In this document: positions 34,567 to 62,710 of the stretch, one piece after another
Position numbering within the stretch: the stretch's first letter is position 1
Layout: every line of letters begins with the position of its first letter
Origin: an uncultured Clostridia bacterium
Lineage (GTDB): Bacteria; Bacillota; Clostridia; UBA1381
Reading direction: 5' to 3'
Assembly: GCA_965151315.1 (NCBI GenBank)
Contig: CBCTZG010000002.1
Coordinates: 25,817-89,816, forward strand
Length of the DNA: 64,000 nt
Made by a program: the position numbers and the translations under genes
The notes under the pieces: model-generated
Told to the model about the DNA's origin: nothing
Seen by the model: only the letters and a program-made list of their open reading frames with translations
The model's database searches: none

Positions 34567-35874
34567 TTATTTTGTATATACAGATAATTCCCGGATAATA
34601 GGCGTATCTTTTGCTTCTTGGCAGGTTAGGCGAATTTTGCTGAAAGGGGAAACCGCGGCAATGGGGATAATGCGTTTATGGCCGATGCTTTTCCCGCTGG
34701 CCAGCGGCTGCCAGCCTGTTTCTGCCAGACCCTCCACAGTAAACGACAGCACACGCTGCCCTTCTAGAATTTCTTCCATTAAAACAACATCCCGTACAGG
34801 CATAGCTTTCTGCAGGTCTAAAATCAATGTATTTCCTTTGCCGGATGCGGATGCGGCAGGAGTAGAAAACTGTTTGCTTAGGAGTCTGCCGAATTCCTGA
34901 AATACAGCCGCGTCGGCGTCTGGCACCAGACCGCGGTTATCAATCACCATACCAATCAGCAGGTTGGAATTGCGGCCTACTGACTTATAGTAGCGGTCTA
35001 AAAGGTATTCAGGTGAATGCACAAGATGGTCTTCGCCGTCTTTCCAGAACCAGCCGCTGCAGTAGGCCGTTTTCCAGTGCCGGATTGGCGTATCACTCTC
35101 CGCCGGCGCCCAGAGTTCACCGGCCGGCGAACCGGGGATATAAAAATTTTCTTCCCCGTTATAGGTGTCCCCCTGGGCACTGGTAGTAGACCAGCAGTCC
35201 TCAGGGGCTTCGCCGTCCTCATTGCCAACCCAGCGAATCAGAGATTTCGTTCCCGGCGGGCCCTGGAACACCACAGCGTCTGGCTGTAGCTTGTGCAGCA
35301 GAGGGATTACGGCCGGGCCGCCTTCCTCCTCAGGAAGGCAGCCGCCGTCAAACCAGATTTCAAAAAGCTTGCCGTAGTTTGTCCAGAGCTCTTCTAATTG
35401 GCGCAGAGCGATGGCGTTATAAGCCTGCTGCTCTTCGGCCGTACCGCCGACCACCCGGCCGGGGTTATCTACCCGCAGATAGCTGTTGCAGGCCAGACTG
35501 TAATACAGTCCAGGCCGAATTCCGTATTTTTTGCAGGAGGCGATAAAATCACCTACAATATCACCCTGCCCCTGTTTCCAGGGAGAATTCTGAATGCTGA
35601 AGGGATGTGCCGCCGTGGGCCAAAGGCTGAAGCCGCTGCAATGTTTGGCCACTAAGACGGCATATTTGGCGCCGGCTGCCGCAGCGGTCTCCATCCATTG
35701 GTCTGTGTCCAGCATTGTTGGATTAAAAACAGAGGACGGCGGGTTTTTCCCAAAATGATCCCGGAAATTATACGGCATAAAGGTTTGCAGATCCATGTGA
35801 ATCAGGACGCCGATTTCACAGTCGGACCATTGGGCCTGCTCTGGTGTTGGTTTAACATTAGGATAAGTATACAT
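34567..35874 (-). CDS. GH29 alpha-L-fucosidase with a C-terminal beta-sandwich domain
   Basis: 'GVLIHMDLQTF', 'FNPTMLDTDQWMETAAAAGAKYAVLVAKHCSGFSLWPT', 'FEIWFDGG'. It is the last gene of the RR-HK operon, with a 25-nt gap to the HK gene. Confidence 0.85.
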   Translation of the reverse strand: MYTYPNVKPTPEQAQWSDCEIGVLIHMDLQTFMPYNFRDHFGKNPPSSVFNPTMLDTDQWMETAAAAGAKYAVLVAKHCSGFSLWPTAAHPFSIQNSPWKQGQGDIVGDFIASCKKYGIRPGLYYSLACNSYLRVDNPGRVVGGTAEEQQAYNAIALRQLEELWTNYGKLFEIWFDGGCLPEEEGGPAVIPLLHKLQPDAVVFQGPPGTKSLIRWVGNEDGEAPEDCWSTTSAQGDTYNGEENFYIPGSPAGELWAPAESDTPIRHWKTAYCSGWFWKDGEDHLVHSPEYLLDRYYKSVGRNSNLLIGMVIDNRGLVPDADAAVFQEFGRLLSKQFSTPAASASGKGNTLILDLQKAMPVRDVVLMEEILEGQRVLSFTVEGLAETGWQPLASGKSIGHKRIIPIAAVSPFSKIRLTCQEAKDTPIIRELSVYTK

Positions 35875-35899
35875 ATATTTTCCTCTTTTCTTCTTTTAT

Positions 35900-37651
35900 T
35901 TATGCCGGTGTAACCGGAAGCTTAATGTAGACGGTTGTGCCTGCTGGGGAGGAGGTAATGGAGCACCCGTATTTTTCTCCAAAAATCAGCTGGATTCGCC
36001 GGTTCACATTACAGATTCCAATATTTTTTGATTCCGGCAGCTGCCCGGAGGCTAAGAGCGCCCGAACGGCCCGGAGCCGTTCTGGGGACATACCGCGCCC
36101 GTTGTCCTGAACGGTAAAGATGAGGATATGCTCCTGGATCCTTGCCGAAATCTGAATGCGGGCCGAACTGTCCTGTTTGTGCTTGAAGCCGTGGGAAAAT
36201 GAATTTTCCACAATGGGCTGCAAAATAAACTTAACCGTTCTCAGCCGCAGAATCTCGTCAGGGATTTCCCATTCTACCCGGAACTGATTCCGGTATTTAA
36301 TCCGCTCGATTTCGATGTATTTCTTCGTATAGGAAATTTCATCCGCAATGGGAATGATATTTTCTTTTGTATTCAGCGAGAAGTACAAAATGTCGGATAA
36401 AAGCCGGATCAGCACGTCCGCATCGTTATTCTGGCTGCCGCTGCCCGCGTACAAAAGGGTTACGGCGTTTAGGGTATTGAACAGAAAATGTGGGTTGAGC
36501 TGGGTCTGCAGGGCGATGGCCTGGGATTTTTTCAGTTCTACCACTTTATTAACCAACTCTTCTTCAATGTGCTGGTTGTTCGTAATGATATTCATTATAT
36601 TTTGATTGATATACGCCAGTTCATTGAAATTTGAGCCTGGCGAATGATCCGGATCGCCAGCCTGGAGCCGGGCCGCAATTTCCGCGATGGATTTATAAAA
36701 ATCCGACGACAGAAAAAAGGAGATTAAAAGCGGGACAGTCAGCGCGGTCAGAACCAGAAGCAGGATAAATGTGATATTGGACAAAAGCGTGTCCTTGCGG
36801 AAGCCGGACACATCATTGTCAATAACCAGATACAAATCCCGATCCTGCAGCGTGTCGGAAAAGGTCAGGATGTTTTTATGCTTCGTACAGACCAGTCTGC
36901 CGCTTTCCGTGTATTGGCCGATGGCCTGCTGTTGGCCGATTTCCTCAAAATTTGTGGAAAACAGGACTGTACCATCCGGCTGATATAGGCGGATGCCTTC
37001 GTCAGCGGTGGCAGACAGTACACGCGTTAGATTCTGGGGCGCGATATTGTAAACAATCAGGCCGTCCAGCATCCCATAGCTATAGACGCCGTAGACTACA
37101 GAGATTATAGCCTGCTGCGCGGCAGCGTCATAATAGGCGGTAATAAAATTTGAATTGCCTGTCCGCTCATATTCCGTATACCAGGCCAGATCGTTAAAAT
37201 CGAGGCGGGTATTGCCATTGCGGGAGGATGTCACATAATCGCTTTTCAAGCTATACAGATATATGGAATCCAGATAATTGTTACTGGTCAGATTGCTGCG
37301 GATCAGCTTGTTGACCTGGTAGGATAAATGGTAGTTATCCTGGCTATAGGTTTCTTCCTCGGTCAGTTTGAAAAACAGCCTGACGTAGTCGTCTGAGTCA
37401 AAGAATACAAAGCTTTTATCCAGTTGGTTTAAAAGATCCTCAAAGATGTTCTGAGTTTTTTTATAGTTGGTGGCCAGAGACGCCTGCTGATCGGTGGCGG
37501 TGTACTTTGCATAGTAGACATAAATACAGCTGCAAACCAAAATAAACGGTATGGTAAAACAGAGCAGCATCTTTTTCCAATATTGAAAAAAGATACTGTT
37601 CCAGCGGTGCTGCCTGATCATGTCATAGGAATCGCGCAAAAAATGTTCCAT
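35900..37651 (-). CDS. YesM-like sensor histidine kinase (two TM segments, extracellular sensor, HAMP, His_kinase, HATPase)
   Basis: 'ALQTQLNPHFLFNTLNAV' is the PF06580-type H-box. The ATPase motifs are 'VQDNGRGM' and 'NIGICNVNRRIQLIFG'. Confidence 0.88.
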   Translation of the reverse strand: MEHFLRDSYDMIRQHRWNSIFFQYWKKMLLCFTIPFILVCSCIYVYYAKYTATDQQASLATNYKKTQNIFEDLLNQLDKSFVFFDSDDYVRLFFKLTEEETYSQDNYHLSYQVNKLIRSNLTSNNYLDSIYLYSLKSDYVTSSRNGNTRLDFNDLAWYTEYERTGNSNFITAYYDAAAQQAIISVVYGVYSYGMLDGLIVYNIAPQNLTRVLSATADEGIRLYQPDGTVLFSTNFEEIGQQQAIGQYTESGRLVCTKHKNILTFSDTLQDRDLYLVIDNDVSGFRKDTLLSNITFILLLVLTALTVPLLISFFLSSDFYKSIAEIAARLQAGDPDHSPGSNFNELAYINQNIMNIITNNQHIEEELVNKVVELKKSQAIALQTQLNPHFLFNTLNAVTLLYAGSGSQNNDADVLIRLLSDILYFSLNTKENIIPIADEISYTKKYIEIERIKYRNQFRVEWEIPDEILRLRTVKFILQPIVENSFSHGFKHKQDSSARIQISARIQEHILIFTVQDNGRGMSPERLRAVRALLASGQLPESKNIGICNVNRRIQLIFGEKYGCSITSSPAGTTVYIKLPVTPA

Positions 37652-38880
37652 TATTGTTTACCATGCTTTTCTTTATATTGGGCCGGCGTCATGCCCGTAA
37701 GGTTTTTAAAGGTTTTAAAAAAGTACCGGGAGCTTTTATAGCCCACGGCTTCTCCGATATAAAACAGCTTGATATTATTTTCAGAAAGCAAGCGCTTGGC
37801 CTGCTCAATTCGGATCTTATTCAGATATGTGTTAACGTTTTCCTGCATATGCTGCTTGAAAAACCGGCCGAAATATACAGGGCTTAGATGTACGTGCTTG
37901 GCCACATCCTCCAGCGAGGTGATGGAGGCGTAATTTTCCCGCATATAATCCACAGCCTGCTGAATAGTATCATTTAAAATAATCTCCTCCGTAGCCGGCT
38001 GATCTTTAACGGTTTGCAGCATATCGGAAACAGCGGGATATTCCCGGATTACGGTAATCTCCGCGTTAAGCCGCAAAGCAGAACGCAGTTTTTCCTGAAG
38101 AGTCTGCATATGCTGTTTTAACCGCCCGGAAAAATCATTTGCGTGTTCCTTGCAGATTACGATAATTTCAATATTTCCCTGGGCGTAAAGAACGGACAGG
38201 ATATAGCAGTCCGGCTGTTCAAAGGGGATTAGCAAGTTGATGGCGTTGTACAGACGGAATTCGTCATATTTCCAAACTTCGTCTAAATATTTCCGGAAAT
38301 CCTGGAGATGAATATTCAATAAAGCGCAAGGGGAGCGGTCAGGGTCAATATCAACGGTTAATGCGGAAAGTCTGTCCGCCAACTCCTCCGATGTATGGAT
38401 GACGCCGCAGAACAAATCAGAAAAGATTTGCTGACAATCATCCTGGATTTTTAAATCGGTAAAGCTTTCCGAAGTAAAGGTAGGGGAAGAAGGCATTGCT
38501 ATCCGCTGATCTAGGATAACCTTAATCTTTTTACACAGGTCAAATAGCTCCTGGCGCAGGATGGGCTTTAAAATATAACCCACAACATTATAGTCAATGG
38601 CAGCCCGGGCATACTCAAAATCCCGATAGGCGCTGATAAAAGCGATCACCGTTTCCGGATATTCTCTCTGGCATAAGGCGGCAAAATCCAAACCGTTGAC
38701 CTCATCCATCTGAATATCTGTGATCACCGCGTCCGTGTGGTTTTCCGCCATATAGGCAAGCGCGGCGGCGCCGCTGGAAAACGTGCCCGCCACATAAAAT
38801 CCAAAAGAAGCCCAGTCGATAAACTGTTCAAGCTGCGACAACACCAGTTCCTCGTCATCGATAAGAATCAGTTGATACAT
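37651..38880 (-). CDS. YesN-like response regulator (receiver domain plus AraC-type HTH)
   Basis: The receiver is 'MYQLILIDDEELV...VITDIQMDEVNGLDF'. The C-terminus is 'LEDVAKHVHLSPVYFGRFFKQ...IGEAVGYKSSRYFFKTFK'. Its stop overlaps the HK start by 1 nt. Confidence 0.88.
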   Translation of the reverse strand: MYQLILIDDEELVLSQLEQFIDWASFGFYVAGTFSSGAAALAYMAENHTDAVITDIQMDEVNGLDFAALCQREYPETVIAFISAYRDFEYARAAIDYNVVGYILKPILRQELFDLCKKIKVILDQRIAMPSSPTFTSESFTDLKIQDDCQQIFSDLFCGVIHTSEELADRLSALTVDIDPDRSPCALLNIHLQDFRKYLDEVWKYDEFRLYNAINLLIPFEQPDCYILSVLYAQGNIEIIVICKEHANDFSGRLKQHMQTLQEKLRSALRLNAEITVIREYPAVSDMLQTVKDQPATEEIILNDTIQQAVDYMRENYASITSLEDVAKHVHLSPVYFGRFFKQHMQENVNTYLNKIRIEQAKRLLSENNIKLFYIGEAVGYKSSRYFFKTFKNLTGMTPAQYKEKHGKQ

Positions 38881-38993
38881 GGGCGTCCCCTCCTGCGGAT
38901 AATATCGATTATATTATAGCATACTCAGCTTCAAAAGCAAGGGGATATAATACAGGATATTTAATTTGAGCCCTGGAAGGTTTAAAATGAGCA

Positions 38994-39023
38994 TTGCTTT
39001 GCAAAGAACGGTTCCGGTATAAT
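38994..39023 (+). promoter_or_regulatory. Putative promoter of the ABC/surface-protein operon, with a 10-bp palindrome over the -35 box
   Basis: TTGCTT (38994-38999), 18-nt spacer, TATAAT (39018-39023). The palindrome CTTTGCAAAG lies at 38997-39006. GGATAT direct repeats lie at 38943-38948 and 38955-38960. Confidence 0.35.
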
Positions 39024-39054
39024 GAAACCATGAAACAGAAAGGACATGATATGC

Positions 39055-40005
39055 ATGCGGGTAAAACAAGTAAAAGCGTCAAATGGACAGCTCCGGCGGG
39101 GAAAGCGGCTTTCGAAGGATGAGTGGCAGCTTTATTCCTTCTGCTTGATTCCGATTCTGCTGGTGTTTATTTTTTGCTATCTCCCGATGGGCGGTATTAT
39201 TATCGCGTTTAAGGACTATCGGTTTGATAAAGGAATTCTTGGCAGCGAGTGGGTAGGCTTTAAAAATTTTGAATTCTTCTTAAAATCCAATGAGTTTGTA
39301 AAACTGACCCGGAACACTTTATATTTAAACGCGCTGTTTATCGTCGTGGGAATCATCGCGGCTTTGGCTGTGGCGATACTTCTTTTTCAGCTTCGGAGCC
39401 GGACCGCGACGAAAGTATATCAAACCATGCTGATTACCCCGAATTTTATCTCCTGGGTTGTGGCTTCCTATATGGTTTACGCGCTTTTAAATCCATCCTA
39501 CGGTGCAATCAATATGCTTTTGCAGAAAATGGGCTTAGAGGGAGTAGACTGGTATAATACCCCGGCGGCATGGCCCGCGATCTTGACCATTGCCGGTGTT
39601 TGGAAAAATGTAGGAATGGACTGCGTAATCTACTATGCTGCACTGATGGGGATTGATCCTACCCTCTTTGAGGCGGCGGAAATCGATGGTGCGGGAACCT
39701 GGCAGAAAATCCGGCGGATTACTATCCCAAGTCTCGTGCCGTTGGTAACGATTTTAACAATTCTAAAGGTCGGCGGTATTTTTCGGGCGGATTTTGGTAT
39801 GTTCTACCAGCTGACTCGGGATGTGGGCGCTTTGTATGACATGACGGACGTCATCGACACCTATGTGTTCCGGACGATGCGTGTGCTGGGCGATATGGGA
39901 ATGGGCTCGGCTATCGGCCTTTTGCAGTCCGTCGTGGGTATTGTTATGGTGCTGGGGACAAACTGGCTGAGTAAGAAAATTGATCCCGATCTGGGCTTGT
40001 TTTAG
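39055..40005 (+). CDS. Sugar ABC transporter permease (LplB-like)
   Basis: Six TM pattern. The EAA loop is 'EAAEIDGAGTWQKIRRITIPSLVP'. The N-terminal basic region is typical of LplB-type permeases. Confidence 0.85.
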   Translation: MRVKQVKASNGQLRRGKRLSKDEWQLYSFCLIPILLVFIFCYLPMGGIIIAFKDYRFDKGILGSEWVGFKNFEFFLKSNEFVKLTRNTLYLNALFIVVGIIAALAVAILLFQLRSRTATKVYQTMLITPNFISWVVASYMVYALLNPSYGAINMLLQKMGLEGVDWYNTPAAWPAILTIAGVWKNVGMDCVIYYAALMGIDPTLFEAAEIDGAGTWQKIRRITIPSLVPLVTILTILKVGGIFRADFGMFYQLTRDVGALYDMTDVIDTYVFRTMRVLGDMGMGSAIGLLQSVVGIVMVLGTNWLSKKIDPDLGLF

Positions 40006-40014
40006 GAGGCAATT

Positions 40015-40905
40015 ATGGAAAAAACAAAAAAACATAGATTTCAGTTCGGCGTACATTTTGTGTTTATTCTGCTGTGCGCCTGCTGCGTACTGCCGTTTCT
40101 CCTGCTGGCGGCGATCTCTTTCTCCAGCGAGGCAGACGTGGCAAAATACGGCTACAGCCTGATCCCCAAAAACTTTGATTTGTCAGCGTACAAATATGTG
40201 TTCTCTAATCCGCAGGCAGTATTTAACGCCTATAAGGTGACGATTATCTTCTCGGTAGTAGGAACCGTTTTAAGTGTGCTGTTGATGGCAATGACGGCTT
40301 ATCCCTTGTCAAAGCGCTGGCTCCGGGGAAGGGGCAAAATCACCTTTTATTTATACTTTACCACCCTGTTCAGCGGCGGCATGGTACCTACTTACATACT
40401 GATTACCCAATACCTGCATTTGCAGAATACCATTTGGGTCTATATCCTGCCCGCCTTGATCAACCCCTGGTACATTTTTATGATCCGGACATTTTTCCAG
40501 GGGCTGCCGGAGGAAATCTTCGAGTCGGCGAAAATTGACGGGGCCAGCGAGTACAATATTTTTTTCCAGTTTGTATTGCCGCTGTCTAAGCCAGTTTTGG
40601 CAACTATTGCGCTGATGACATTTTTAGGCAAATGGAATGAGTGGTATACAGCGATGCTTTATATCAATGACGACAATCTGATCAGCCTGCAGTATCTGCT
40701 TCAGCGGATCATGCAGAATATCCAACTTTTGCAGAACGCGTCCACGGACTTAAACACAGCGTCGATGCTGTCTGCCTATGACATCCCGACAGAAACAGTT
40801 CGGATGGCCATGGCGGTTGTTGTGGCGGGACCGGCGCTTTTGATCTTCCCGTTTTTCCAGAAGTACTTTGTTAAGGGCCTGACTATCGGCTCTGTCAAGG
40901 GTTAA
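40015..40905 (+). CDS. Carbohydrate ABC transporter permease (LplC-like)
   Basis: The EAA loop is 'ESAKIDGASEYNIFFQFVLPLSKP'. There is a 9-nt gap to the upstream permease. Confidence 0.88.
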   Translation: MEKTKKHRFQFGVHFVFILLCACCVLPFLLLAAISFSSEADVAKYGYSLIPKNFDLSAYKYVFSNPQAVFNAYKVTIIFSVVGTVLSVLLMAMTAYPLSKRWLRGRGKITFYLYFTTLFSGGMVPTYILITQYLHLQNTIWVYILPALINPWYIFMIRTFFQGLPEEIFESAKIDGASEYNIFFQFVLPLSKPVLATIALMTFLGKWNEWYTAMLYINDDNLISLQYLLQRIMQNIQLLQNASTDLNTASMLSAYDIPTETVRMAMAVVVAGPALLIFPFFQKYFVKGLTIGSVKG

Positions 40906-40941
40906 TTGTCAATTTGTACAATATAAAAGGAGGAATTTTAT

Positions 40942-42411: not shown

Positions 42412-42455
42412 GAAAAACCATGCACTGGTAAAATAAATTGAGGAGGAACGAAACG

Positions 42456-43844: not shown

Positions 43845-43886
43845 TCGGATGTTTTGCGGCAAGCCGGGTTTATTAGGAGGATGAGC

Positions 43887-47456: not shown

Positions 47457-47474
47457 TTTGAAAGGATTTTAAAG

Positions 47475-50400: not shown

Positions 50401-50510
50401 TACACGCTGTGGCGCGGGCTGTGCCGGAAGCTGTGGACTATACGGCGTTCCTATGGGATGGAATAGATACTATGCAGCCCCTTGGGGACTGTAAAATTTA
50501 TGTGAGGTAG
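47475..50510 (+). CDS. Secreted right-handed parallel beta-helix protein (ORF C, 1,011 aa); candidate polysaccharide hydrolase or lyase
   Basis: Signal peptide, then an Ig-like N-module, then 'LYVAPDGNDLAPGTKDEPLATL' and many short G/N-rich coils ('NTGGNGIVVD', 'NRIINNHVYN', 'LLIQNNLVH'). It continues with an Fn3-like 'YYWNVTAR' domain and a C-terminal 'FLWD' module. Confidence 0.75.
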   Translation: MKAGTAVKLGLLITILLLLTPVIHGFAAVVNSVDIQGEKLTVQGNLSQYTPAQIVGVYILKEGKAPADIAGAAQPGDVFDQIGMAAVDDNGKYTCQLICSDTSEKGSLYVKSGAEEILLPVENYKSPGRTLYVAPDGNDLAPGTKDEPLATLTGARDLIRAWRAERGELLEAVTVYIMPGEYRMTETAVFTREDSGTAECPITYRAYAPGTVTFKGSVKLPAEDFRQVTDRETLQRLPIQAAGRVYQMDLGNYGITPDQVQFKDIWGRDAFSQAVSPAVPGLYLNGKRQDIARWPNVGYADFSLPDGSSAILDPGEEQGRGAVFYFREPNLQRWITAKDMFIDGYLAVQYAGAYRRVKAIDPEAETIALVGGVIAGPERRWTAVNLLEELDMPGEFYIDRDNMRLYYYPAYDLTETDVLEYAAMQTPLIQLENVSYMQLQDLDFAQVYAAGITGSGIDHIQVSDCEISFTAGHGIWFSDARNTEVTGCTVHNTGGNGIVVDTNTTQQELFSLTACGNRIINNHVYNVSDQVRTMGSGISGNGVGLLIQNNLVHLSPNMGASGGGAESEVSYNELYNLIRDTADAGGVYIGRTLISYGNRYAFNYIHDMGIEGFLENEHTSGIFWDDFLSGQTAENNIIVNDYPGTAYGININGGRDLRVNGNIFVGMDYAVRNTDRSNQPVDQVNFMPEIVEDLKWVAAADSEYTRKYPQMVQTYREIQEDGKFNPKNMDFSGNIVFNCRQAAAENGGVFTNGRIAGEFSDTVNIDNFVTKNSSIFVDPKQGDYRLTEAGKAAAGLQDFVLDEDFDLDTIGFQGVVPLGDGFRKTYPQNGAAVGGGITLAWEQALFADEYVYTVSENPDLSDPIYQGITIYRHAELFGLEPGKTYYWNVTARHTSRKFAGAWESGPVYSFRTTTCPVQVQDMQAEASADALTVTMRTYNGSAEAAGTLLLAGYQPDGSLAGVTAAKITVPAGAAAIHAVARAVPEAVDYTAFLWDGIDTMQPLGDCKIYVR

Positions 50511-50519
50511 GATGATTCG

Positions 50520-53500: not shown

Positions 53501-54683
53501 TATGGTATCTGCCCCGAACAATGGTATATTTAAAGAAAACGAGTGGAACGACATTGAGATGGGCATGATTCCGGCAGGCAAAGGGAATCTTTGTTTAGTC
53601 AAGATCAACGGGCAGGCGGTATTCAGTTATTTAGATGAAGCCAATCCAGTCCGGGCAGAGGGGAGAATTTCCTTGCAGCCGGCGGACGGCTCCTGGATTT
53701 CCATTCGGTCGGCAGAGAACGCAAAGACCGGACCATATACGCCGCCGGAAGAACTTCTTCAAAGTGATGAGGGCTTACCCATTTACTATACAACTGAATC
53801 TCCGGAGTATACTGAATCCGGTACATGGGCAGTAGATGATCAAAAAGGTTATCAGGATATGGCATCACGTTCTACGAAGGAGACCGGTGCTTATGCCCAG
53901 TTCAGCCTAAAGCCGGCCGATGAGATCAGAACCTATCGCGTTTCGTATTATCATGTCCCCGGCGAGGATAATGATCCGGCAGCGTCCGTTTATTTCCGGA
54001 ACCTGTATACCAGCTATACCCGGAAATTGGATCTCACCAAGGGAGAAGCCGGCTGGATAGAGCTGGGGGTTTTTAACTTTGCCAATGAAGCGGCAAAGGG
54101 TGTTATGGATATCCAATTTACTGCCGGCGGACAGGGAACCATGCGGATATCTGCACTAAAGATTGAGCAAGTAGAAGAATCTATGCGGGAATTTTCCGAA
54201 GTGTTTACGCTGCACGCGAAAAACGCGTTGCTTTTAAAGGCCGGTGACAATCGGGCGTTTAAAGATATCAGCGAATATACGCTGGACACGGCACCAACGA
54301 TTTTAAACGGACGGACGCTGATCCCGCTTCGGTTTGTATCAGAAGCCTTTGACACGCAGGTGGATTGGCAGCCGGATACCCGGGCGGCAACAATTCAGAC
54401 GAGTGATAAGCAGATTATATTTCAGGCGGACAGCCGAACATATACAGATGGTGGCAGCACCATGACCTTAGATCAACCGCCGGTGATCCAAGAAGACCGG
54501 ATGATGGTTCCTCTGCGGGCCTTGGCGGAAGCTTTGGGTAACCAGGTGATGTGGGATGACCGGTATCAGCTGATTTTAATTGCGAAAGAGTTCCAGTTTG
54601 AGGAACAGAACAAAGAAAAGATATTCGACGTCTGCAATGCGGCATTTATGCAGACGGAAAATGGAGGGGCAAATGAAACGTAA
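50520..54683 (+). CDS. Secreted right-handed parallel beta-helix protein (ORF D, 1,387 aa), a paralog of ORF C with a long multi-domain tail ending in a Cu-amine-oxidase-N-like domain
   Basis: Signal peptide 'MKKVLVLILIYGMVLGGLPAYA', then 'LHVSPNGSDTNPGTEDRPLATL'. It is colinear with ORF C through the Fn3-like domain. The tail ends 'ILNGRTLIPLRFVSEAF...MMVPLRALAEALG'. Confidence 0.75.
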   Translation: MKKVLVLILIYGMVLGGLPAYAADSGTDNTTVLHVSPNGSDTNPGTEDRPLATLDAARRIVRGMAKKEPIEVLFHAGEYRVSQTVWFDSGDAGTEQAPITYKSAGDGEVIFNGAKILDISAFEPVTDQKILKRLPASAVGRVGQMDLGAQGITQDQIISIHTQWNQNPYEQFCTPQIRNIYVNGREQQLARWPNKNFLSISNVVSDNTFVYTETNPSNWTEAKDVFIAGYMFSEWEGGWAQIERIDPANRTITLKNSSVLANHRWSAVNLLEEMDIPGEWYADRETMTLYYYPEKLLEPGRDVMELPVLRDAFIGMTQCPYVNFEGLTFERGYCDGIRSYNSDHVIVRNCVMRDLAGAGIYSDNGRYALFEDNTIYNTGMHNIYYNFTDSQSDKDNIVHTGTVIRNNHCYNGANHGIGMSAANISFSGIGTVVENNTVHRGINSGIIGTGPECAVRYNEIYNMVRESADAGAYYMGRTWTNYGTDFSYNYIHDLGDREFDAANLVDCVFWDDAASGQTARYNIMWPNSKTRTYGVISGGGRDNDISYNIIVDSDQSIGMQDRTTYLTDVKTGYFDGVAYKGLEAAVATSTPYNRKYPQMLKTYQELEQTGIFYPNNNTLMHNVIINSADINYANAVKDSPTTKAEGNYVGTGYDIFVDPENQDFRIKKSAKAELGLDDGVLDEDFDITQIGMQREMIDVDRSFAKTYPRNGDSGLNAANVTLSWQQSAFADEYVYEVATDPDFNNIVRTGTTIYTNTEIENLEKDTNYYWRVKAKTISRAFPSETESEDVPFLFKTAAYDILVTDNLKSAVEKAELFAESITEGEELGQYKPGTKDALNTAIASADAILKMTSGQQATINNAELDLNAALEQAKSSINVGYMGTIDTSPESEWVTQQPDHIQITREDGGVTVTRASTEGMAASGVEYPSYGIYQFQIKASLGDGWCAVGMRHSNINSHQIYYSEDNKLNNYFIIIKKDAFELQSRNSDNVGATVMVSAPNNGIFKENEWNDIEMGMIPAGKGNLCLVKINGQAVFSYLDEANPVRAEGRISLQPADGSWISIRSAENAKTGPYTPPEELLQSDEGLPIYYTTESPEYTESGTWAVDDQKGYQDMASRSTKETGAYAQFSLKPADEIRTYRVSYYHVPGEDNDPAASVYFRNLYTSYTRKLDLTKGEAGWIELGVFNFANEAAKGVMDIQFTAGGQGTMRISALKIEQVEESMREFSEVFTLHAKNALLLKAGDNRAFKDISEYTLDTAPTILNGRTLIPLRFVSEAFDTQVDWQPDTRAATIQTSDKQIIFQADSRTYTDGGSTMTLDQPPVIQEDRMMVPLRALAEALGNQVMWDDRYQLILIAKEFQFEEQNKEKIFDVCNAAFMQTENGGANET

Positions 54684-56390
54684 AACATGGATCCTAATCA
54701 CACTCATATGCATACTTCACGGGGCGGCTGCCCAAGCTGCCGAGGTGGTGTTAGACGATATTGCCGAAGGTATCGTAAAAGTAAGCGGCTACGGCCAGGC
54801 CGCCGGGGAGCAGGTGAATCTGGTTGTGCTGAACCCAGGCGCGGAACTGGGTGAGGCTGGCAACGACGCCGCCCTGTCCCAGTATGTCGATGCGGTTCCT
54901 GTCGCAGAAGACGGGAGCTACAGCGCGAAATCCAGTTAGAAGGCACAGCTGGGCAGTCCGGCACGTATGATATTTATGTGCGGGAGCCGGGCGACAGCGC
55001 ACCTGTCCAATTTTCGGTCTATTGGGCCTCAGCGGACGAAATGATTCAGGCGGCTAAAGCGATTGTAGAAAATCAGGACACGGCTTCGATCCAGCAAGGG
55101 AAAAAAGCCCTGGCACTGGATATAGACCTAATCAACAAAACAGACCTAAACCTGACCGCACAGCATTTTGCCCGGTATTTGCAGGAAAACCCAATTCTAT
55201 TCGACGGTAACAATGACTTGCAAAAGGCAGCAGAAGTGCAGAGCCAGCTCAAGGCTTGCGCCCTGTTGGCGGCATACAATAAGGGAATTTCCGAATTGGC
55301 CTTTTTAAACGACGGACAGTTCCGCTATAACGAAATTACCAATATGACAGGCATGGATCAGGAATATGATATTACGGCCTATAGTCTGTACAGCACTAAG
55401 CTGAGTGACACGGGGAAAAAGCTGGTGCGGGATGGGCTCCTCGGCATAAATGCGGAGGGTCTGACAGACGTTAAGCGTCAGTTTACGGATCTTGTTCTGT
55501 ATTATGGAATCGGCAATCATGCGGTAGCTGGTTATAACCATGTGTCCGAATACATTACAGAGGCCAATGTCCGATTTGCGGAAAATGTGGACAAGGATCA
55601 AAATCCGGTAAAAACATACCTGGGGCTGACAAATCCGTCCAGTGTAAACGCTGAGATCGTACGGAATTACGGCCAAATGACATTGGAAAATTATAAAGCA
55701 AAGATTGAAGAATTGGCGAAAGGAAGCAGCGGTAATGATCCGGCGCCGGGCGGCGGCAGCGGAGGATCATCGGGCGGTGGCAGCAGCCCGTCTGCCGGAA
55801 ATGGAATTTTTGCGCCGAATACTGGCGATAAAGCGGATCCTACGCCGGAGCAGCAGCCCGAAGGTGCTTTTACGGATATGCAGAATGCCCAGTGGGCAAA
55901 AGAAGCGGTTGAAGCCTTGGCAGCGCGAGGGGTAATCAACGGCTACGGTGACGGCCGGTTCGGGCCGGGGGATTTTTTAACCCGGGAGCAGGCTGCAAGA
56001 ATTATTTGCACATATTTTGAAATACCAACCAGCGATGGCGCAAATACCGGTTTTTCTGATGTGGATGCGGATGCCTGGTATGCACCGTATGTGGCCGGTG
56101 CAAAGGACGCTGGTGTTTTATACGGCGTCCAGGAGAATCAATTCGGAATAGGCGCCGAGATTACAAGACAAGACCTGGCTGTATTAATTTATCGAGCTTT
56201 AGGCGAACCGGCCCCAGCGGCGGAAGCAATGTTTACAGATATGGATGAAATTGCGGATTACGCTAAACCAGCGGTATTGTATTTGAAGGAACAGGGGATA
56301 ATTAACGGCTATGAAGACGGCACTTTCTTGCCGGGACATTTTGTGACCCGGGCAGAAACTGCGCAGATGCTTTTTGGGATTTCCAGATAG
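54673..56390 (+). pseudogene. SLH-anchored surface protein (ORF E) split by an apparent 1-nt deletion near 54928-54933; intact length would be ~572 aa
   Basis: ORF 54673-54939 (signal peptide plus half an Ig-like module) stops at TAG. The 0-frame is open from 54855 and continues the same module ('IQLEGTAGQSGTYDIYVREPG') into ORF 54978-56390, which ends in three SLH repeats. Confidence 0.7.
55867..56387 (+). other. Three tandem SLH (S-layer homology) repeats at the C-terminus of ORF E
   Basis: 'FTDMQNAQWAKEAVEALAARGVINGYGDGRFGPGDFLTREQAA', 'FSDVDADAWYAPYVAGAKDAGVLYG...ITRQDLA' and 'FTDMDEIADYAKPAVLYLKEQGIINGYEDGTFLPGHFVTRAETA'. Confidence 0.85.
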
Positions 56391-56403
56391 GGAGGTAGTT
56401 TAA

Positions 56404-59334
56404 ATGAAAAAGTTAGTATCGCTTTTCCTGGCTTTGGGAATCTTGCTTGGCGGAATGCCAATAATCCAGGCTGGTGCGGTGGAAGACGTACCGAACCAGA
56501 AGGCTATAGACCTTGTCACCGGATTAGGGCTGATGACGGCGGATGAGGAAGAAGGCTTCCAGCCAGACAGTACCGTTGCCCGTTCGGAAATGGCTATAAT
56601 TATTGAGCGGATTTACCGCTTTGACGAAGAAAAGGCAGAGGATATTTGGGAATTTTATGGAACCACTGAAAATGTATTGCTGACCCCAGAGGAGGGAGGA
56701 CAGGCATCTGTTTTTGCGGATGTAACCCCCGGGAATCCAGCTTATAACGCCATTGCATTTGCAGCAATGCAGGGAATCATGGTGGGTACCGGACCGGATC
56801 GATTTGAACCAGAACGGGAATTGACGAACCAGGAGGCACTGAACGTATTGGTCAATCTGTTGGGCTATAAAGTCCAGGCGCAGATGCAGGGTGGTTATCC
56901 GAATGGATATCTGCAGACAGCTGCACAGATTGGGCTCGTAACAGGCAGCCCAGAAGAGCCCATTATAAAAGGAAAGCTGGCGGCCTTGCTTGCCAAAACG
57001 CTGGATAGTGACCTGATGCAGACATCTATTGTCAACGGCGGGATTCACTATGCGGTGGCACAGGACTGCACTGTGCTGTCAGAAATCATGGGGATTACGA
57101 ATATTACCGGACAAATCAAACAAAACGGTGTGACTTCACTGACTGGGGAAAGCGATCTTGCGCCGGAAGGGCTGCAGGTGGAAAACACCCGGCTGCTGAC
57201 TACCACGCAGACAGCTTACGCGGCGGAATGGATCGGCCGGAATGTGGACTGCTACTATAAATCCCAGAACACGGAGGACGAATACACTGTGGTGTATTGC
57301 GCACTGTCGGAGAAGGACACGAGCGTGACATTTCCCATAGGTGATTTTGTTTCTTATGACGGAACAAAAATTATCTATGAAACAGAAACAAAAAATGTAT
57401 CGAAACCAATTCTAAACGGAGCATATGTGATTTACAACGGATTAGCTGCGGGCGAACTGCCATCTGCATATTTTGATTATGAAGATGGTACCGTAACGCT
57501 GGTTGCTTCGGATAATGGGGCACAGTATGATATTGTGATCATTAACGGTTATGAAAACTGGTATGTCAGCAGTGTTGACACTACCGATGCGGATAGTGTA
57601 ATTCTGACCAATAAAATTAAAGATTCCCGGCCGGATACAGACGACGTGCAGTTGGCGCTTCCGTATGAGGATTTTGGAAAAACAATATCGATTGTGGATA
57701 AAAACGGCGCGGCAATGGAATTGGATCAGTTGACACCCAATATGGCGGTAGATGTATCCAGAAATGGAAATGTGATCCGGCTTCGGGTTTCTGAAGACCG
57801 AATCAGTGACTTTAAGATTCAGTCTATTGACACCGAAGAGGGGATCCTTTCCGACGGCGAGCTGGAATATGAACTATCCCAGGCTTTTCTGGACTGCACA
57901 GAACGGGAGCAATACCAGGTGGGGCAGGCCTATACGCTGTGTTTAAACAGCTTCGACCGGATTGTCTGGATGGAAGGCGCCGGGACAGACGATTCTGTAC
58001 GGTTTGGCTATGTGATGAATTTTAAGAATTATGAAGAAGAAGAAAAAATTGTAGCAAAAATCTGTACAGCAGACAAGACATTCCAGAATTTTTATTTGGC
58101 AGATAAAATCAAGCTCAGCGATAACCGTGGGAATGACAACAAGCGTGTAGAAGCGTTGAATGTTTTCGGGATTCTACAGGAGTTTGACAACAGTGTAATC
58201 CGATATAAACTGAACAGTGAGGATGTAATTACAGAAATTGAATTGCCGCTGGATCCGGATGTGAAGACAAATAAGCTTGATCGGCTGTATACCATGGTGA
58301 TCAGTGACGAATCCAATAAGGCCGATTATTCTTATTCCCAGAACCAGTACACGTTTGGTGCAAAGGTTTTCATCAGCGCTGCGGGAACACAGGTTTTGAG
58401 CGTACCGGCTGACATAACAGATCAGTCCAAATACAGGTTTATCAGTCCGGACGATATTACCAACGGCGAATGGAGCTTTAAAGCTTATGGCACCAACAAG
58501 CGGTCTGTTTTGGCAAAATTCCTCTGCCTGTCCGGTTCAGTATCCACAGCGCTCGGAGACCAGAATTATCCGGTGGTTGTTACAGATGTCGATATGCTGT
58601 TGGATGAGAATGATGAAATTGTAACGAAGATTTCGATTTTCCGGCAGGGGAAGGACGAGGTCATCTATGACAGCGCGGAAAACGATTTTGTGCATAAAGC
58701 GCTGCCTCGGACTTTGAACCAAAACACTGCTGCAGAAGATGATTATCTAACGATTTCCCCGGGAGATATAATCCGGGTAGCTACGGATTCCAGCGGGTAT
58801 ATCAGCTTTGTGGAAATGCTGTTTGACGCCGATGCCGTATATGACAATTCCAAGTATTCCGATTATTTTGCAGGAAGAGACTCCTTTGACGAAGAGTTTA
58901 CTTGGGAGCAGACCGGTATGCTGGCCGGAACTGTTGGATATTACGCCAATGATATTCAGAATACCAATCCATTGGCATCTCAGTTTGTAGGCGTAACCTC
59001 CAGCAATCTTGCCAACCGATTTGATTACGGTGTGCCCCGGTTTATTCTGGGCTATGTTTACGATATGCAGGATGGCTATATCACCTATACAACCCAGAAT
59101 ATTATGGAGTCCAGTTATGATCCGAACAACAGCAAGTTTGTTACAGAAAGCCGGAATATGGACTTTGTAACTACGTTGGTTGACCTGAGCGGTAAAAAGG
59201 TTACCGCTAGAACGGGAACGGCCAATGATATCCGTACCTATCAGGATTTCCCCAAAAGCTGCTCCAGGGTTTTAGTGATGACAGCTTCCGCGGATAAACG
59301 GTTTATGTTTATTATTAACGGAGAAATCAAGTAA
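56404..59334 (+). CDS. SLH-domain surface protein (ORF F, 976 aa): N-terminal SLH triplet plus ~750 aa of beta-rich sequence of unknown function
   Basis: GGGAGG RBS. Signal peptide 'MKKLVSLFLALGILLGGMPIIQAGA'. SLH-like 'FADVTPGNPAYNAIAFAAMQGIMVGTGPDRFEPERELTNQEA'. I recognise nothing in the remainder. Confidence 0.75.
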   Translation: MKKLVSLFLALGILLGGMPIIQAGAVEDVPNQKAIDLVTGLGLMTADEEEGFQPDSTVARSEMAIIIERIYRFDEEKAEDIWEFYGTTENVLLTPEEGGQASVFADVTPGNPAYNAIAFAAMQGIMVGTGPDRFEPERELTNQEALNVLVNLLGYKVQAQMQGGYPNGYLQTAAQIGLVTGSPEEPIIKGKLAALLAKTLDSDLMQTSIVNGGIHYAVAQDCTVLSEIMGITNITGQIKQNGVTSLTGESDLAPEGLQVENTRLLTTTQTAYAAEWIGRNVDCYYKSQNTEDEYTVVYCALSEKDTSVTFPIGDFVSYDGTKIIYETETKNVSKPILNGAYVIYNGLAAGELPSAYFDYEDGTVTLVASDNGAQYDIVIINGYENWYVSSVDTTDADSVILTNKIKDSRPDTDDVQLALPYEDFGKTISIVDKNGAAMELDQLTPNMAVDVSRNGNVIRLRVSEDRISDFKIQSIDTEEGILSDGELEYELSQAFLDCTEREQYQVGQAYTLCLNSFDRIVWMEGAGTDDSVRFGYVMNFKNYEEEEKIVAKICTADKTFQNFYLADKIKLSDNRGNDNKRVEALNVFGILQEFDNSVIRYKLNSEDVITEIELPLDPDVKTNKLDRLYTMVISDESNKADYSYSQNQYTFGAKVFISAAGTQVLSVPADITDQSKYRFISPDDITNGEWSFKAYGTNKRSVLAKFLCLSGSVSTALGDQNYPVVVTDVDMLLDENDEIVTKISIFRQGKDEVIYDSAENDFVHKALPRTLNQNTAAEDDYLTISPGDIIRVATDSSGYISFVEMLFDADAVYDNSKYSDYFAGRDSFDEEFTWEQTGMLAGTVGYYANDIQNTNPLASQFVGVTSSNLANRFDYGVPRFILGYVYDMQDGYITYTTQNIMESSYDPNNSKFVTESRNMDFVTTLVDLSGKKVTARTGTANDIRTYQDFPKSCSRVLVMTASADKRFMFIINGEIK
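56485..56950 (+). other. SLH repeat region at the N-terminus of ORF F
   Basis: There are three degenerate SLH-like units. The second is the clearest. The first and third, 'GFQPDSTVARSEMAIII' and 'GGYPNGYLQTAAQIGLVTG', are weaker. Confidence 0.65.
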
Positions 59335-62701: not shown

Positions 62702-62710
62702 AAGAGAATC

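What the first reader, a model, noticed from the sequence alone, without database searches (positions are those of the whole stretch)
34567..59334. A ~25-kb sensor/importer/surface-protein locus: candidate undescribed SLH-tethered glycan-processing system
Seen in sequence:
- A minus-strand operon runs RR (37651-38880), HK (35900-37651), GH29 (34567-35874).
- It diverges from nine plus-strand ORFs separated by 9-44 nt or overlapping. There is no hairpin/T-run terminator until 59362-59404.
- The nine ORFs are two LplB/LplC-like permeases, a 489-aa lipoprotein SBP, then six signal-peptide proteins of 462, ~1,190, 1,011, 1,387, ~572 (frameshifted) and 976 aa.
- By eye I can assign only beta-helix cores, an SbsA-type Ig, Fn3-like, ConA-like and Cu-amine-oxidase-N-like domains, and SLH repeats.
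- Well over half of the ~5,600 aa carries no motif I recognise.
- The proteins share private modules, reported as separate findings.

Established knowledge: YesMN-type two-component systems with LplABC-type importers accompany oligosaccharide-utilisation genes in Firmicutes. SLH triplets tether proteins non-covalently to secondary cell-wall polymer.

Inference: this is one transcription unit encoding a wall-tethered multiprotein apparatus that binds and cuts a complex glycan and imports the products. I found no cohesin/dockerin-type calcium-binding repeats, no LPXTG signals, and no Sus-like genes. It therefore does not fit the described cellulosome, sortase or PUL paradigms.
Basis: partly seen in the sequence, partly recalled or inferred. 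Interest (0 to 1): 0.8.

Follow-up and report, generated by a model that had tools for sequence, protein, structure and literature searches.

The report
Gut Clostridia fucose-glycan locus, surface proteins
This is a sugar-polymer utilisation gene cluster of an uncultured gut Clostridia bacterium (sensor, importer, two GH141-type cutting enzymes). Its new feature is a conserved pair of wall-anchored proteins of unknown fold that recurs in many such clusters and has never been studied.

Summary
In detail: gene layout, spacing, terminator, frameshift and most domain calls are as described.

The locus meets the published definition of a Gram-positive polysaccharide utilisation locus (enzyme, transporter and regulator), so "fits no paradigm" is overstated.

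- **Enzymes.** The two beta-helix proteins (O9, O10) are paralogous enzymes with the GH141 fold. Their family profile hits BT_1002 at E 1e-59, and the O9 model matches it by Foldseek at E 2e-24. Both catalytic Asp residues are conserved.
- **Synteny.** The whole gene order recurs in another organism, with a GH95 gene in place of GH29. That locus runs two-component system, ABC importer, CBM96/Big_5 protein, two beta-helix enzymes, SLH-566, SLH-993. The four-gene core recurs in at least four more places in gut MAGs, twice in one MAG as deep paralogues.
- **SLH pair.** O11 plus O12 also accompanies a GH10 xylanase in a xylan locus. O12 belongs to a very large unnamed family known only from metagenomes (more than 150 full-length representatives below E 1e-100). 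Its 770-aa body has a confident model with no structural match. Some members carry a fused GDSL esterase or a CBM32-like domain.
- **Frameshift.** It is one missing C. Two other assemblies have the gene intact.

Best reading: a wall-proximal system for a fucose-containing glycan. Substrate, co-transcription and any physical complex are untested.

The parts
34567..35874 (-). GH29 alpha-L-fucosidase, no signal peptide (cytoplasmic)
   Evidence: Pfam Alpha_L_fucos 6.2e-33. The N-terminus MYTYPNVKPTPEQ has no hydrophobic leader.
35900..37651 (-). YesM-type sensor histidine kinase
   Evidence: Pfam His_kinase 3e-19, HATPase_c and dCache_1. An orthologue sits in the syntenic locus L038 (34% identity).
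37651..38880 (-). YesN-type response regulator (receiver plus AraC HTH)
   Evidence: Pfam Response_reg 2.5e-22 and HTH_18 1.4e-17. 35% identical to the L038 orthologue.
38881..39045 (.). Divergent intergenic region with candidate promoters; a perfect -10 TATAAT lies at 39018-39023
   Evidence: Read directly from the sequence. The scanner did not score it because the -35 is weak. Its function is inferred only.
39046..40005 (+). ABC permease (LplB-like)
   Evidence: Pfam BPD_transp_1 4.9e-11. 59% identical to the L038 orthologue.
40015..40905 (+). ABC permease (LplC-like)
   Evidence: Pfam BPD_transp_1 2.6e-9. 64% identical to the L038 orthologue.
40942..42411 (+). Lipoprotein solute-binding protein (LplA-like)
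   Evidence: Pfam SBP_bac_1 plus DUF3502 1.4e-19. Lipobox LASGC. 51% identical to the L038 orthologue.
42438..43844 (+). O7: secreted 468-aa (462 aa from the ATG) accessory protein with no known family and a C-terminal Ig-like 'FLWD..QPL' module
   Evidence: No Pfam, NCBIfam or PDB sequence hit. Its C-terminus is weakly similar to that of O9 (6e-4), and a helical module is similar to O8 (5e-5). Its C-terminal part is 27% identical to the L038 682-aa protein.
43854..47456 (+). O8: secreted accessory protein of about 1190 aa with CBM96/DNRLRE-like and Big_5 domains and a C-terminal Ig-like module; putative glycan binder
   Evidence: Pfam CBM96 7.8e-7 (above the cutoff) and Big_5 1.7e-9. NCBIfam DNRLRE 1.5e-7. 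Residues 670-1195 are 33% identical to the L038 727-aa CBM96+Big_5 protein.
47475..50510 (+). O9: secreted GH141-fold beta-helix glycosidase (N-terminal Ig, catalytic core, Fn3, C-terminal Ig-like module)
   Evidence: - Family profile against PDB: 9rx2 at 2e-108, BT_1002 at 1.4e-59.
- AF2 model pLDDT 89, pTM 0.85.
- Foldseek top hit 5mqp at E 1.8e-24, TMt 0.64.
- D583 and D625 align to BT1002 D523 and D564.
50520..54683 (+). O10: secreted paralogous GH141-fold glycosidase with a long C-terminal extension ending in a Cu_amine_oxidN1 ('stalk') domain
   Evidence: 37% identical to O9 over 818 aa. Pfam Beta_helix and Cu_amine_oxidN1 3.4e-30. D469 and D511 are the catalytic equivalents. 48-51% identical to orthologues in L038 and L001.
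54673..56390 (+). O11: 573-aa protein (N-terminal Ig, helical domain of about 280 aa, Gly/Ser linker, C-terminal SLH triplet); broken here by a 1-nt deletion between 54923 and 54924
   Evidence: Pfam SLH, three stretches, 4.9e-38. The intact P0258 is 99% identical. The missing C is shown by the DNA alignment. N-terminal homologues occur in L003-L008.
56404..59334 (+). O12: 976-aa protein with an N-terminal SLH trimer and a 770-aa all-beta body of unknown fold; member of a very large unnamed family
   Evidence: - AF2 model pLDDT 88.9.
- Foldseek matches only residues of about 30-200, to the SpaA and Sap SLH domains.
- Profile search: more than 150 full-length representatives below 1e-100.
- Orthologues at 27-39% identity in L003-L006 and 35% in L038.
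59362..59404 (+). Intrinsic terminator ending the nine-gene unit
   Evidence: Hairpin with a 12-nt loop and a run of 7 T, read from the sequence.
59478..62701 (+). Adjacent xylose isomerase and GH3 genes (a separate unit, probably related catabolism)
   Evidence: TIGR02630 6e-212. Glyco_hydro_3 N- and C-terminal domains. The arrangement is conserved in the same-species contig L035.
62748..63947 (-). GH78 alpha-L-rhamnosidase (C-terminal part; the gene runs off the window)
   Evidence: Bac_rhamnosid6H 2.5e-96. The full 726-aa gene is present in L035.

Best explanation
**What it is.** The locus is a Gram-positive polysaccharide utilisation locus (gpPUL) of an uncultured gut-type Clostridia bacterium. 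It probably targets a fucose-containing complex glycan. The best guess is a plant pectic or hemicellulosic glycan carrying fucose, xylose and rhamnose.

**Proposed mechanism**
1. The YesMN-type sensor and AraC-type regulator sense breakdown products. They activate the divergent nine-gene unit. This step is inferred.
2. O9 and O10 are paralogous secreted GH141-fold glycoside hydrolases that cut the glycan outside the cell. Fold and catalytic residues are shown; activity is inferred.
3. O10 is held at the wall by its C-terminal Cu_amine_oxidN1 domain. O11 and O12 are held on secondary cell-wall polymer by their SLH triplets. This step is inferred from what those domains are known or reported to do.
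4. O7 and O8 (CBM96/DNRLRE-like, Big_5) and the SLH pair O11/O12 are non-catalytic surface proteins. They are proposed to bind or present the glycan, or the enzymes, next to the importer.
5. The LplABC-like ABC system takes up the oligosaccharides.
6. Cytoplasmic GH29 removes fucose. Neighbouring GH3, GH78 and xylose isomerase may continue the breakdown.

**The SLH pair.** O11/O12 is a substrate-independent module. Each such locus in this lineage carries its own diverged copy.
For: - **gpPUL definition met.** Enzyme, transporter and regulator are all present (definition in PMC5320581).
- **GH141 fold for O9 and O10.**
  - Single sequences hit BT_1002 at 2.4e-12 and 4.9e-9.
  - A 43-sequence family profile hits 9rx2 at 2e-108 and BT_1002 at 1.4e-59 over the whole catalytic domain.
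  - The O9 model (pLDDT 89, pTM 0.85) has 5mqp as top Foldseek hit at E 1.8e-24, TMt 0.64. The next-best fold is 17 orders of magnitude weaker.
  - BT1002 D523 and D564 (PMC12786026) align to O9 D583 (41 of 43 sequences) and D625 (43 of 43).
- **Conserved unit.**
  - L038/L039 repeat the full gene order at 35-64% identity, with GH95 downstream.
  - The four-gene core is in L003, L004, L005 and L006 (the last without an O9-type gene) and, rearranged, in L037.
  - Short gaps and a single terminator fit one operon.
- **Fucose theme.** GH29 here, GH95 in L038, and a Fuc/Ara-isomerase-like gene in L005.
- **SLH pair is generic.**
  - O12-like proteins lie next to a protein with a C-terminal SLH triplet in 19 of 32 loci.
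  - O11 N-terminal homologues occur in the GH10 xylan locus L007/L008.
  - The two cassettes in one MAG are deep paralogues, 31-40% identical.
- **O12 scaffold is used for glycan work.** Family members carry a fused GDSL esterase or an F5/8 type C domain.
- **Cu_amine_oxidN1 is a wall-associated module.** Papers describe it as frequent in cell-wall hydrolases and list it among predicted wall-binding modules (PMC4137172; bioRxiv 10.64898/2026.09.23.753664). A YkuD L,D-transpeptidase in this window carries it too.
- **Cytoplasmic steps.** GH29, GH3 and XylA lack signal peptides.
Against: - There are no expression, localisation or activity data.
- Promoter-like hexamer pairs are somewhat enriched inside the unit (48 against 30.5 +/- 4.9), so internal starts cannot be excluded.
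- The substrate is a guess. GH141 already includes a fucosidase, a xylanase and endo-fucanases. Homologous cassettes sit next to heparinase II/III-FGE-sulfatase fusions, GDSL esterases and GH42-like genes, which could point to other glycans.
- O7 and O8 are poorly conserved outside L038.
- O11 is frameshifted in this assembly.
- O12's conserved residues are mostly Gly, Pro and aromatic, and its body has no CBM-like structural match. A binding role is therefore not demonstrated.
- No ABC ATPase gene lies in the locus. This is usual for LplABC-type systems, but it was not checked here.
Confidence: 0.62

Rival explanations
1. This is an ordinary gpPUL in which the six secreted proteins act independently. 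O11 and O12 are simply wall proteins that happen to be co-regulated, for example as local S-layer or envelope remodelling components. There is no docking or cooperative surface assembly.
For: - No cohesin, dockerin or other known interaction module is present.
- The O12 body has no CBM-like or enzyme-like structural match.
- Its conserved residues look structural.
- Nothing tested here shows protein-protein contact.
Against: - The pair is encoded inside utilisation loci next to permeases and enzymes in many MAGs. It is duplicated and diverged per cassette within one genome, which is not expected of a general envelope protein.
- Fusions of the O12 scaffold to a GDSL esterase or a CBM32-like domain tie it to glycan processing.
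Confidence: 0.25
2. O9 and O10 are polysaccharide lyases or non-hydrolytic beta-helix proteins (epimerases, adhesins) rather than GH141-type hydrolases.
For: - The precomputed Pfam assignment includes Pel9A-like_beta_helix.
- The family profile also hits the PL6 alginate lyase 7dmk (1.5e-9) and chondroitinase B weakly.
- Foldseek lists capsule lyases and AlgE epimerases further down.
- Neighbouring cassettes encode heparinase-like proteins.
Against: - The GH141 match is far stronger than any lyase match (1e-59 against 1e-9 by profile; 2e-24 against at best 4e-7 by fold).
- It covers the N-terminal domain plus the helix.
- Both BT1002 catalytic Asp residues are conserved in 41-43 of 43 family members.
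Confidence: 0.08
3. The locus acts on the cell's own envelope glycans or on an exopolysaccharide (turnover of secondary cell-wall polymer or capsule), not on a nutrient.
For: - SLH and Cu_amine_oxidN1 are wall-targeting modules that are also typical of autolysins.
- Beta-helix depolymerases often act on capsules.
Against: - The locus is linked to a sugar-sensing YesMN-type system, an LplABC-type importer, a cytoplasmic GH29, xylose isomerase, GH3 and GH78.
- The same SLH pair sits in a GH10/CBM9 xylan locus.
Confidence: 0.05

Closest known systems
Gram-positive polysaccharide utilisation loci (gpPULs) of Roseburia and Eubacterium rectale (Sheridan et al. 2016, PMC5320581)
   Same: Glycoside hydrolases are clustered with an ABC importer and an HK/RR(AraC-CheY) regulator. 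There are no SusC or SusD genes.
   Different: This locus has six large secreted proteins, four of them non-catalytic. Anchoring is by SLH or Cu_amine_oxidN1 domains. It also carries a conserved pair of SLH proteins; I did not check that paper for such a pair.
Paenibacillus sp. JDR-2 surface-anchored polysaccharide bioprocessing systems (PMC4765114)
   Same: SLH-mediated wall anchoring places depolymerisation next to substrate-specific ABC importers, followed by cytoplasmic trimming.
   Different: In all 29 proteins listed for JDR-2, the SLH domains and the functional (mostly catalytic) domain are on one multimodular polypeptide. Here the enzymes O9 and O10 carry no SLH, and the SLH triplets are on separate non-catalytic proteins O11 and O12.
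GH141 enzymes: BT_1002 alpha-L-fucosidase (PDB 5mqp), Xyn141E xylanase, Wf141 endo-fucanases (PMC5593877, PMC12786026)
   Same: O9 and O10 share the N-terminal domain plus right-handed beta-helix fold, and both catalytic Asp residues.
   Different: - Identity to BT_1002 is only about 18%.
- By sequence they are closer to the uncharacterised PDB entry 9rx2.
- They carry extra Ig, Fn3, FIVAR-like and stalk modules.
- Specificity is unknown, and CAZy membership was not testable here.
Cellulosome scaffoldin/anchoring systems of Clostridia (SLH-bearing anchoring scaffoldins)
   Same: Non-catalytic SLH proteins are encoded together with SLH-less secreted enzymes. This suggests enzymes held at the wall through partner proteins.
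   Different: The window proteins have no cohesin or dockerin modules. Any docking would have to use other modules, such as the C-terminal Ig-like 'WD..QPL' module or Cu_amine_oxidN1. That is unproven.
Bacteroidota Sus-like surface glycan-binding proteins (SusD/E/F)
   Same: Non-catalytic surface proteins specific to each locus are encoded next to the transporter and enzymes. They diverge from locus to locus.
   Different: There is no sequence or fold relationship. Anchoring is to a Gram-positive wall rather than by an outer-membrane lipid anchor. Glycan binding by O11 and O12 is not shown.

Membership tests
Gram-positive PUL (gpPUL; definition in PMC5320581) | At least one polysaccharide-degrading enzyme in the locus | tested here: met
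   GH29 (6e-33). O9 and O10 have the GH141 fold.
Gram-positive PUL (gpPUL; definition in PMC5320581) | A carbohydrate transport system in the locus | tested here: met
   Two BPD_transp_1 permeases and an SBP_bac_1/DUF3502 lipoprotein.
Gram-positive PUL (gpPUL; definition in PMC5320581) | A transcriptional regulator in the locus | tested here: met
   HK (His_kinase/HATPase_c/dCache_1) and RR (Response_reg plus AraC HTH), divergently transcribed.
Glycoside hydrolase family 141 (O9, O10) | Sequence homology to characterised GH141 members across the catalytic domain | tested here: met
   The family profile hits BT_1002 at E 1.4e-59, profile positions 25-527 against chain residues 24-584. Single sequences hit only the N-terminal ~90 residues.
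Glycoside hydrolase family 141 (O9, O10) | N-terminal domain plus right-handed parallel beta-helix fold as in 5mqp | tested here: met
   The O9 AF2 model matches 5mqp at E 1.8e-24, prob 1.0, TMt 0.64-0.65 over about 650 columns.
Glycoside hydrolase family 141 (O9, O10) | Catalytic Asp pair (BT1002 D523 and D564) | tested here: met
   They align to O9 D583 and D625, and to O10 D469 and D511. The residues are D in 41 of 43 and 43 of 43 family members.
Glycoside hydrolase family 141 (O9, O10) | Pfam GH141_M insertion domain above the gathering score | tested here: inconclusive
   Scores of 16.3 and 19.0 bits against a cutoff of 27.
Glycoside hydrolase family 141 (O9, O10) | CAZy/dbCAN family assignment and hydrolytic activity | not testable with these tools
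   No dbCAN or CAZy library is available, and no biochemistry.
SLH-anchored surface proteins | Three tandem SLH motifs forming the pseudo-trimeric wall-binding domain | tested here: met
   O11: Pfam SLH, three stretches, 4.9e-38. O12: Pfam finds one repeat, but model residues of about 30-200 match the SpaA and Sap SLH trimers at prob 1.0, TMt about 0.7.
SLH-anchored surface proteins | Binding to pyruvylated secondary cell-wall polymer; csaB in the genome | not tested
   No csaB-type gene was looked for, and the window covers only 64 kb. Binding needs experiment.
Paenibacillus JDR-2-type surface-anchored multimodular glycoside hydrolase | Catalytic domain, CBM and SLH triplet on the same polypeptide | tested here: not met
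   O9 and O10 have no SLH. O11 and O12 have SLH but no catalytic domain.
Cellulosome | Cohesin and dockerin modules | tested here: not met
   No Cohesin or Dockerin_1 hit at E <= 0.01 in any of the six proteins.
Sortase-anchored surface proteins | C-terminal LPXTG sorting signal | tested here: not met
   A regex search finds no LPxTG in O7-O12.
Bacteroidota Sus-like PUL | SusC (TonB-dependent transporter) / SusD gene pair | tested here: not met
   No such Pfam hit among the locus proteins.

The most novel reading that the evidence does not exclude
The O11/O12-type SLH pair would be a locus-specific surface platform of uncultured gut Clostridia. It would be a Gram-positive functional counterpart of Sus-like surface glycan-binding proteins or of anchoring scaffoldins.

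Each utilisation locus would encode its own diverged pair. That pair would capture the target glycan and/or hold the locus's SLH-less proteins at the wall. The holding would use new docking modules: the C-terminal Ig-like 'F-L-W-D...Q-P-L' module of O7, O8 and O9, and the Cu_amine_oxidN1 domain of O10 and of the GH10 xylanase in L008.

The 770-aa body of O12 would then be a new fold family serving this role.
Probability: 0.2. Interest if true: 0.8.

Novelty: new variant of a known kind. Interest (0 to 1): 0.5.

Why it matters
- **An unstudied group.** Little is known about how uncultured gut Clostridia, which are abundant in ruminant, bird, rabbit and human gut metagenomes, organise glycan capture at their surface.
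- **A marker.** The locus points to a recurrent and so far unnamed pair of wall-anchored proteins. That pair accompanies different enzyme sets (GH141-like here, GH10 elsewhere). It could serve as a genomic marker for utilisation loci in these organisms.
- **A test case.** It offers a concrete question: do Gram-positive bacteria have dedicated surface glycan-binding or docking proteins for each locus?
- **New enzymes.** It adds a distinct, multi-modular branch of GH141-fold enzymes. These are linked to fucosidase genes (GH29 or GH95) and are candidates for new specificities on fucosylated plant glycans.

Tried and rejected
- **Source organism.** Exact-sequence look-up of O9 and P0001 found no contig. 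Cluster look-ups gave no names. The source stays 'uncultured Clostridia'.
- **O12 homologues.**
  - The word-index homology search found only 5 relatives and missed 30-40% identical orthologues. The exhaustive profile search was needed.
  - Alignment A3 was too divergent for the genome scan, so I used A4 instead.
- **Frameshift.** I first placed it at a missing A in an AAA run. That was wrong. DNA alignment with two other assemblies shows a missing C at 54923/54924.
- **O11 structure.** The O11 N-terminal domain therefore has no model.
- **O12 body.** Foldseek against PDB and BFVD found nothing credible. The DDB1 and LEF-3 hits have TM below 0.1-0.16.
- **PDB sequence searches.** O7, O8 and the O11 family gave nothing beyond SLH.
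- **'Private modules'.** All-against-all BLASTP supports only the O9-O10 paralogy. The other shared modules are marginal (5e-5, 6e-4).
- **Literature.** Searches for 9RX2 and for Monoglobus with SLH found nothing in the held library. From memory only: the Monoglobus pectinilyticus genome paper (Kim et al. 2019, ISME J) proposed SLH-bearing surface pectinases. I could not check it.
- **Rejected readings.** Cellulosome, sortase anchoring and Sus-like PUL all failed their defining-feature tests.

Full report

Yes. The ORF table reproduces every gene at the stated coordinates.

Pfam confirms the minus-strand genes:
- GH29 at 34567-35874 (Alpha_L_fucos, 6e-33).
- A YesM-type kinase at 35900-37651.
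- An AraC-type response regulator at 37651-38880.

It also confirms the start of the plus-strand unit: two BPD_transp_1 permeases and a 489-aa SBP_bac_1/DUF3502 lipoprotein (lipobox). Six ORFs with signal peptides follow: 468, 1200, 1011 and 1387 aa, a broken one of about 573 aa, and 976 aa.

Intergenic distances are 9, 36, 26, 9, 18, 9, -11 and 13 nt. The hairpin and T-run at 59362-59404 is genuine. It has a 12-nt loop, which is why the automatic scan missed it. Terminator-like matches inside the unit are at chance level (19 against 19.4).

The frameshift in O11 is one missing C between 54923 and 54924. Two independent metagenome assemblies of the same organism (97-100% identical proteins) have the C and encode an intact 573-aa protein.

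No LPXTG, cohesin, dockerin or SusC/D signature is present.

**2. What the two beta-helix proteins are.**

O9 and O10 are paralogues, 37% identical over 818 residues.

- Single-sequence searches of the PDB hit BT_1002, the founding GH141 enzyme, only in the N-terminal domain.
- A 43-member family profile hits the uncharacterised entry 9rx2 at 2e-108. It hits BT_1002 at 1.4e-59 across the whole catalytic domain.
- BT1002's essential D523 and D564 (PMC12786026) align to O9 D583 and D625, and to O10 D469 and D511. These positions are Asp in 41 of 43 and 43 of 43 family members.
- An AlphaFold model of O9 (pLDDT 89, pTM 0.85) has BT_1002 as by far its best structural match: E 1.8e-24, TMt 0.64. 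The next fold is at 1.5e-7.
- The C-terminal 200 or so residues of O9 match tandem Fn3 domains.

O9 and O10 are therefore GH141-fold glycoside hydrolases. Formal CAZy membership and specificity remain untested. GH141 already contains an alpha-L-fucosidase, an endo-xylanase and endo-fucanases (PMC5593877, PMC12786026).

**3. The locus is a conserved unit.**

A contig from another organism (L038, and L039 from a second data set) repeats the entire arrangement:

| Gene in L038 | Identity to the window protein |
|---|---|
| HK, RR (divergent) | 34%, 35% |
| Permease 1, permease 2 | 59%, 64% |
| SBP | 51% |
| 682-aa protein with no Pfam hit | partial matches to O8 and to the O7 C-terminus |
| 727-aa CBM96+Big_5 protein | 33% (O8 residues 670-1195) |
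| Beta-helix, 1033 aa | 39% (O9) |
| Beta-helix plus Cu_amine_oxidN1, 1406 aa | 48% (O10) |
| SLH protein, 566 aa | 36% (O11) |
| SLH protein, 993 aa | 35% (O12) |
| GH95 gene | takes the place of GH29 |

The four-gene core also occurs elsewhere:
- Twice in the MAG SUG3072 (L003, L004).
- In the goat-gut MAG RGIG1932 (L005).
- In the goat-gut MAG RGIG2049 (L006), with an O10-type enzyme but no O9-type gene, and a second O10-like gene downstream.
- Rearranged, in L037.

The two cassettes within SUG3072 are deep paralogues: 34, 40, 36 and 31% identical for the four proteins.

Neighbouring genes differ from place to place. They include heparinase II/III-FGE-sulfatase fusions, GDSL esterases with SLH, a GH42-like gene, a Fuc/Ara-isomerase-like gene and a Pect-lyase_RHGA gene. 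The recurrence of GH29, GH95 and a fucose-isomerase-like gene suggests a fucose-bearing substrate. That is the weakest part of the model.

**4. The SLH pair is the really undescribed part.**

O12:
- It has only one Pfam SLH hit. A confident model (pLDDT 88.9, 90-sequence alignment) shows a complete SLH trimer at residues of about 30-200, matching SpaA and Sap (prob 1.0, TMt about 0.7).
- A 770-residue all-beta body follows. It has no credible match in the PDB or BFVD.
- An exhaustive profile search of 1.84 billion representatives found more than 150 full-length relatives below 1e-100. It found 6,527 proteins below 1e-30, a count partly inflated by the SLH region.
- None of the sampled clusters carries a name, and all come from metagenomes.

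Distribution:
- A genome scan found 32 loci, all in uncultured gut Clostridia MAGs: goat, deer, rabbit, bird and human.
- In 19 of them the O12-like gene lies directly beside a gene whose product ends in an SLH triplet. This is often downstream of LplB/C-like permeases and an SBP.
- Iterative search shows that the O11 N-terminal region (Ig plus helical domain) is homologous over its full length in L003-L008 and partly in L013, L020, L033 and L034.
- L007/L008 is a xylan locus. Its order is permeases, SBP, GH10-CBM9-Cu_amine_oxidN1, a 465-aa protein, O11-like, O12-like, GH10, then HK and RR.

The pair therefore does not depend on the substrate.

Some O12-family members of about 1350 aa carry an N-terminal GDSL esterase. 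One carries an F5/8 type C domain. This ties the scaffold to glycan processing at the wall.

Conserved residues in the family are mostly Gly, Pro and aromatic. I see no catalytic signature.

**5. Tethering.**

O10 ends in Cu_amine_oxidN1 (3.4e-30). This domain is reported to be frequent in cell-wall hydrolases and is listed among predicted wall-binding modules (PMC4137172; bioRxiv 10.64898/2026.09.23.753664). A YkuD L,D-transpeptidase elsewhere in the window carries it too.

O7, O8 and O9 have neither SLH nor this domain. All three end in an Ig-like module with a tail such as FLWDSLESLQPL. Similar tails end non-SLH proteins in eight related loci, against 1.5 expected. Whether this module docks onto the SLH pair is speculation.

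**6. Comparison with what is known.**

- The locus meets all three criteria of a gpPUL (PMC5320581).
- It follows the logic of the Paenibacillus JDR-2 systems: SLH-anchored depolymerisation, ABC import, then cytoplasmic trimming (PMC4765114).
- It differs from JDR-2 because the enzymes and the SLH anchors are on separate polypeptides.
- It differs from cellulosomes because there are no cohesin or dockerin modules.
- It differs from all of these in its dedicated, diverging SLH pair of unknown fold.

I therefore rate it a new variant of a known kind. The claim that it lies outside all paradigms is overstated. The 'multiprotein apparatus' remains a hypothesis.

**7. Verdict.**

| Reading | Confidence or score |
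|---|---|
| gpPUL with GH141-fold enzymes and wall-associated accessory proteins | about 0.6 |
| O11/O12 as a per-locus capture or docking platform | about 0.2 |
| Interest | 0.5 |

The enzymology and regulation are ordinary for the field. The widespread, unnamed and structurally unmatched SLH pair is a worthwhile lead for gut-microbiome glycobiology.

Noticed in passing
window 12713-14149 (-): A YkuD L,D-transpeptidase carries a Cu_amine_oxidN1 domain (1.1e-13). This is the same C-terminal module as on the O10 glycosidase. It fits the idea that this domain targets proteins to the cell wall in this organism.
   Followed up: partly
window 43700-43844, 47320-47456, 50370-50510 (C-termini of O7, O8, O9); L003, L007, L008, L009, L011, L015, L020, L028: A recurrent C-terminal Ig-like module ends in a tail of the form [FHY][LVI]W[DSNE]...[PS][LMF]. 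It is found on secreted proteins that lack SLH, in loci that carry the O11/O12-type pair. Eight tails were found against 1.5 expected. Its function is unknown; it could be a retention or docking module.
   Followed up: partly
L037 14800-18876; proteins P0119, P0120, P0128, P0163, P0183, P0233: These are natural fusions of the complete O12-type protein (SLH plus body). Most carry an N-terminal GDSL esterase; one (P0233) carries an F5/8 type C (CBM32-like) domain.
   Followed up: yes
window 54923/54924: The O11 frameshift is a single missing C relative to two other assemblies of the same organism (L035, L036). It is either an assembly or sequencing error, or a strain-specific pseudogene.
   Followed up: yes
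window 62707-62749: A long, near-perfect palindrome (19-20 bp stem with A and T runs on both sides) lies between the convergent GH3 and GH78 genes. It looks like a bidirectional terminator.
   Followed up: no
window 15791-18415 (-): A GH116-family protein (Glyco_hydr_116N plus DUF608) sits among housekeeping and cell-wall synthesis genes (Ddl, Mur ligase), about 16 kb upstream of the locus.
   Followed up: no
window 36000-60000 versus flanks: G+C content in most of the locus is 0.44-0.51, against about 0.52-0.58 in most of the flanking housekeeping regions. The difference is small and could reflect horizontal acquisition or gene-class composition.
   Followed up: no
L009 12768-16442: In a related locus, the gene after the O12-like gene encodes a protein of 1224 aa with F5/8 type C, DUF7402 and a Dockerin_1 domain (9.7e-7). 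Some relatives therefore combine the SLH pair with cellulosome-type modules.
   Followed up: no
L003 14788-17601; L004 14823-17627; L037 24421-24734 (gene runs off the locus end): Proteins of about 935 aa that fuse an FGE-sulfatase-like domain to heparinase II/III-like domains recur downstream of homologous cassettes in L003 and L004. The L037 gene shows only a weak Hepar_II_III_C hit and is cut off by the end of the locus. Their role and substrate are unknown.
   Followed up: no
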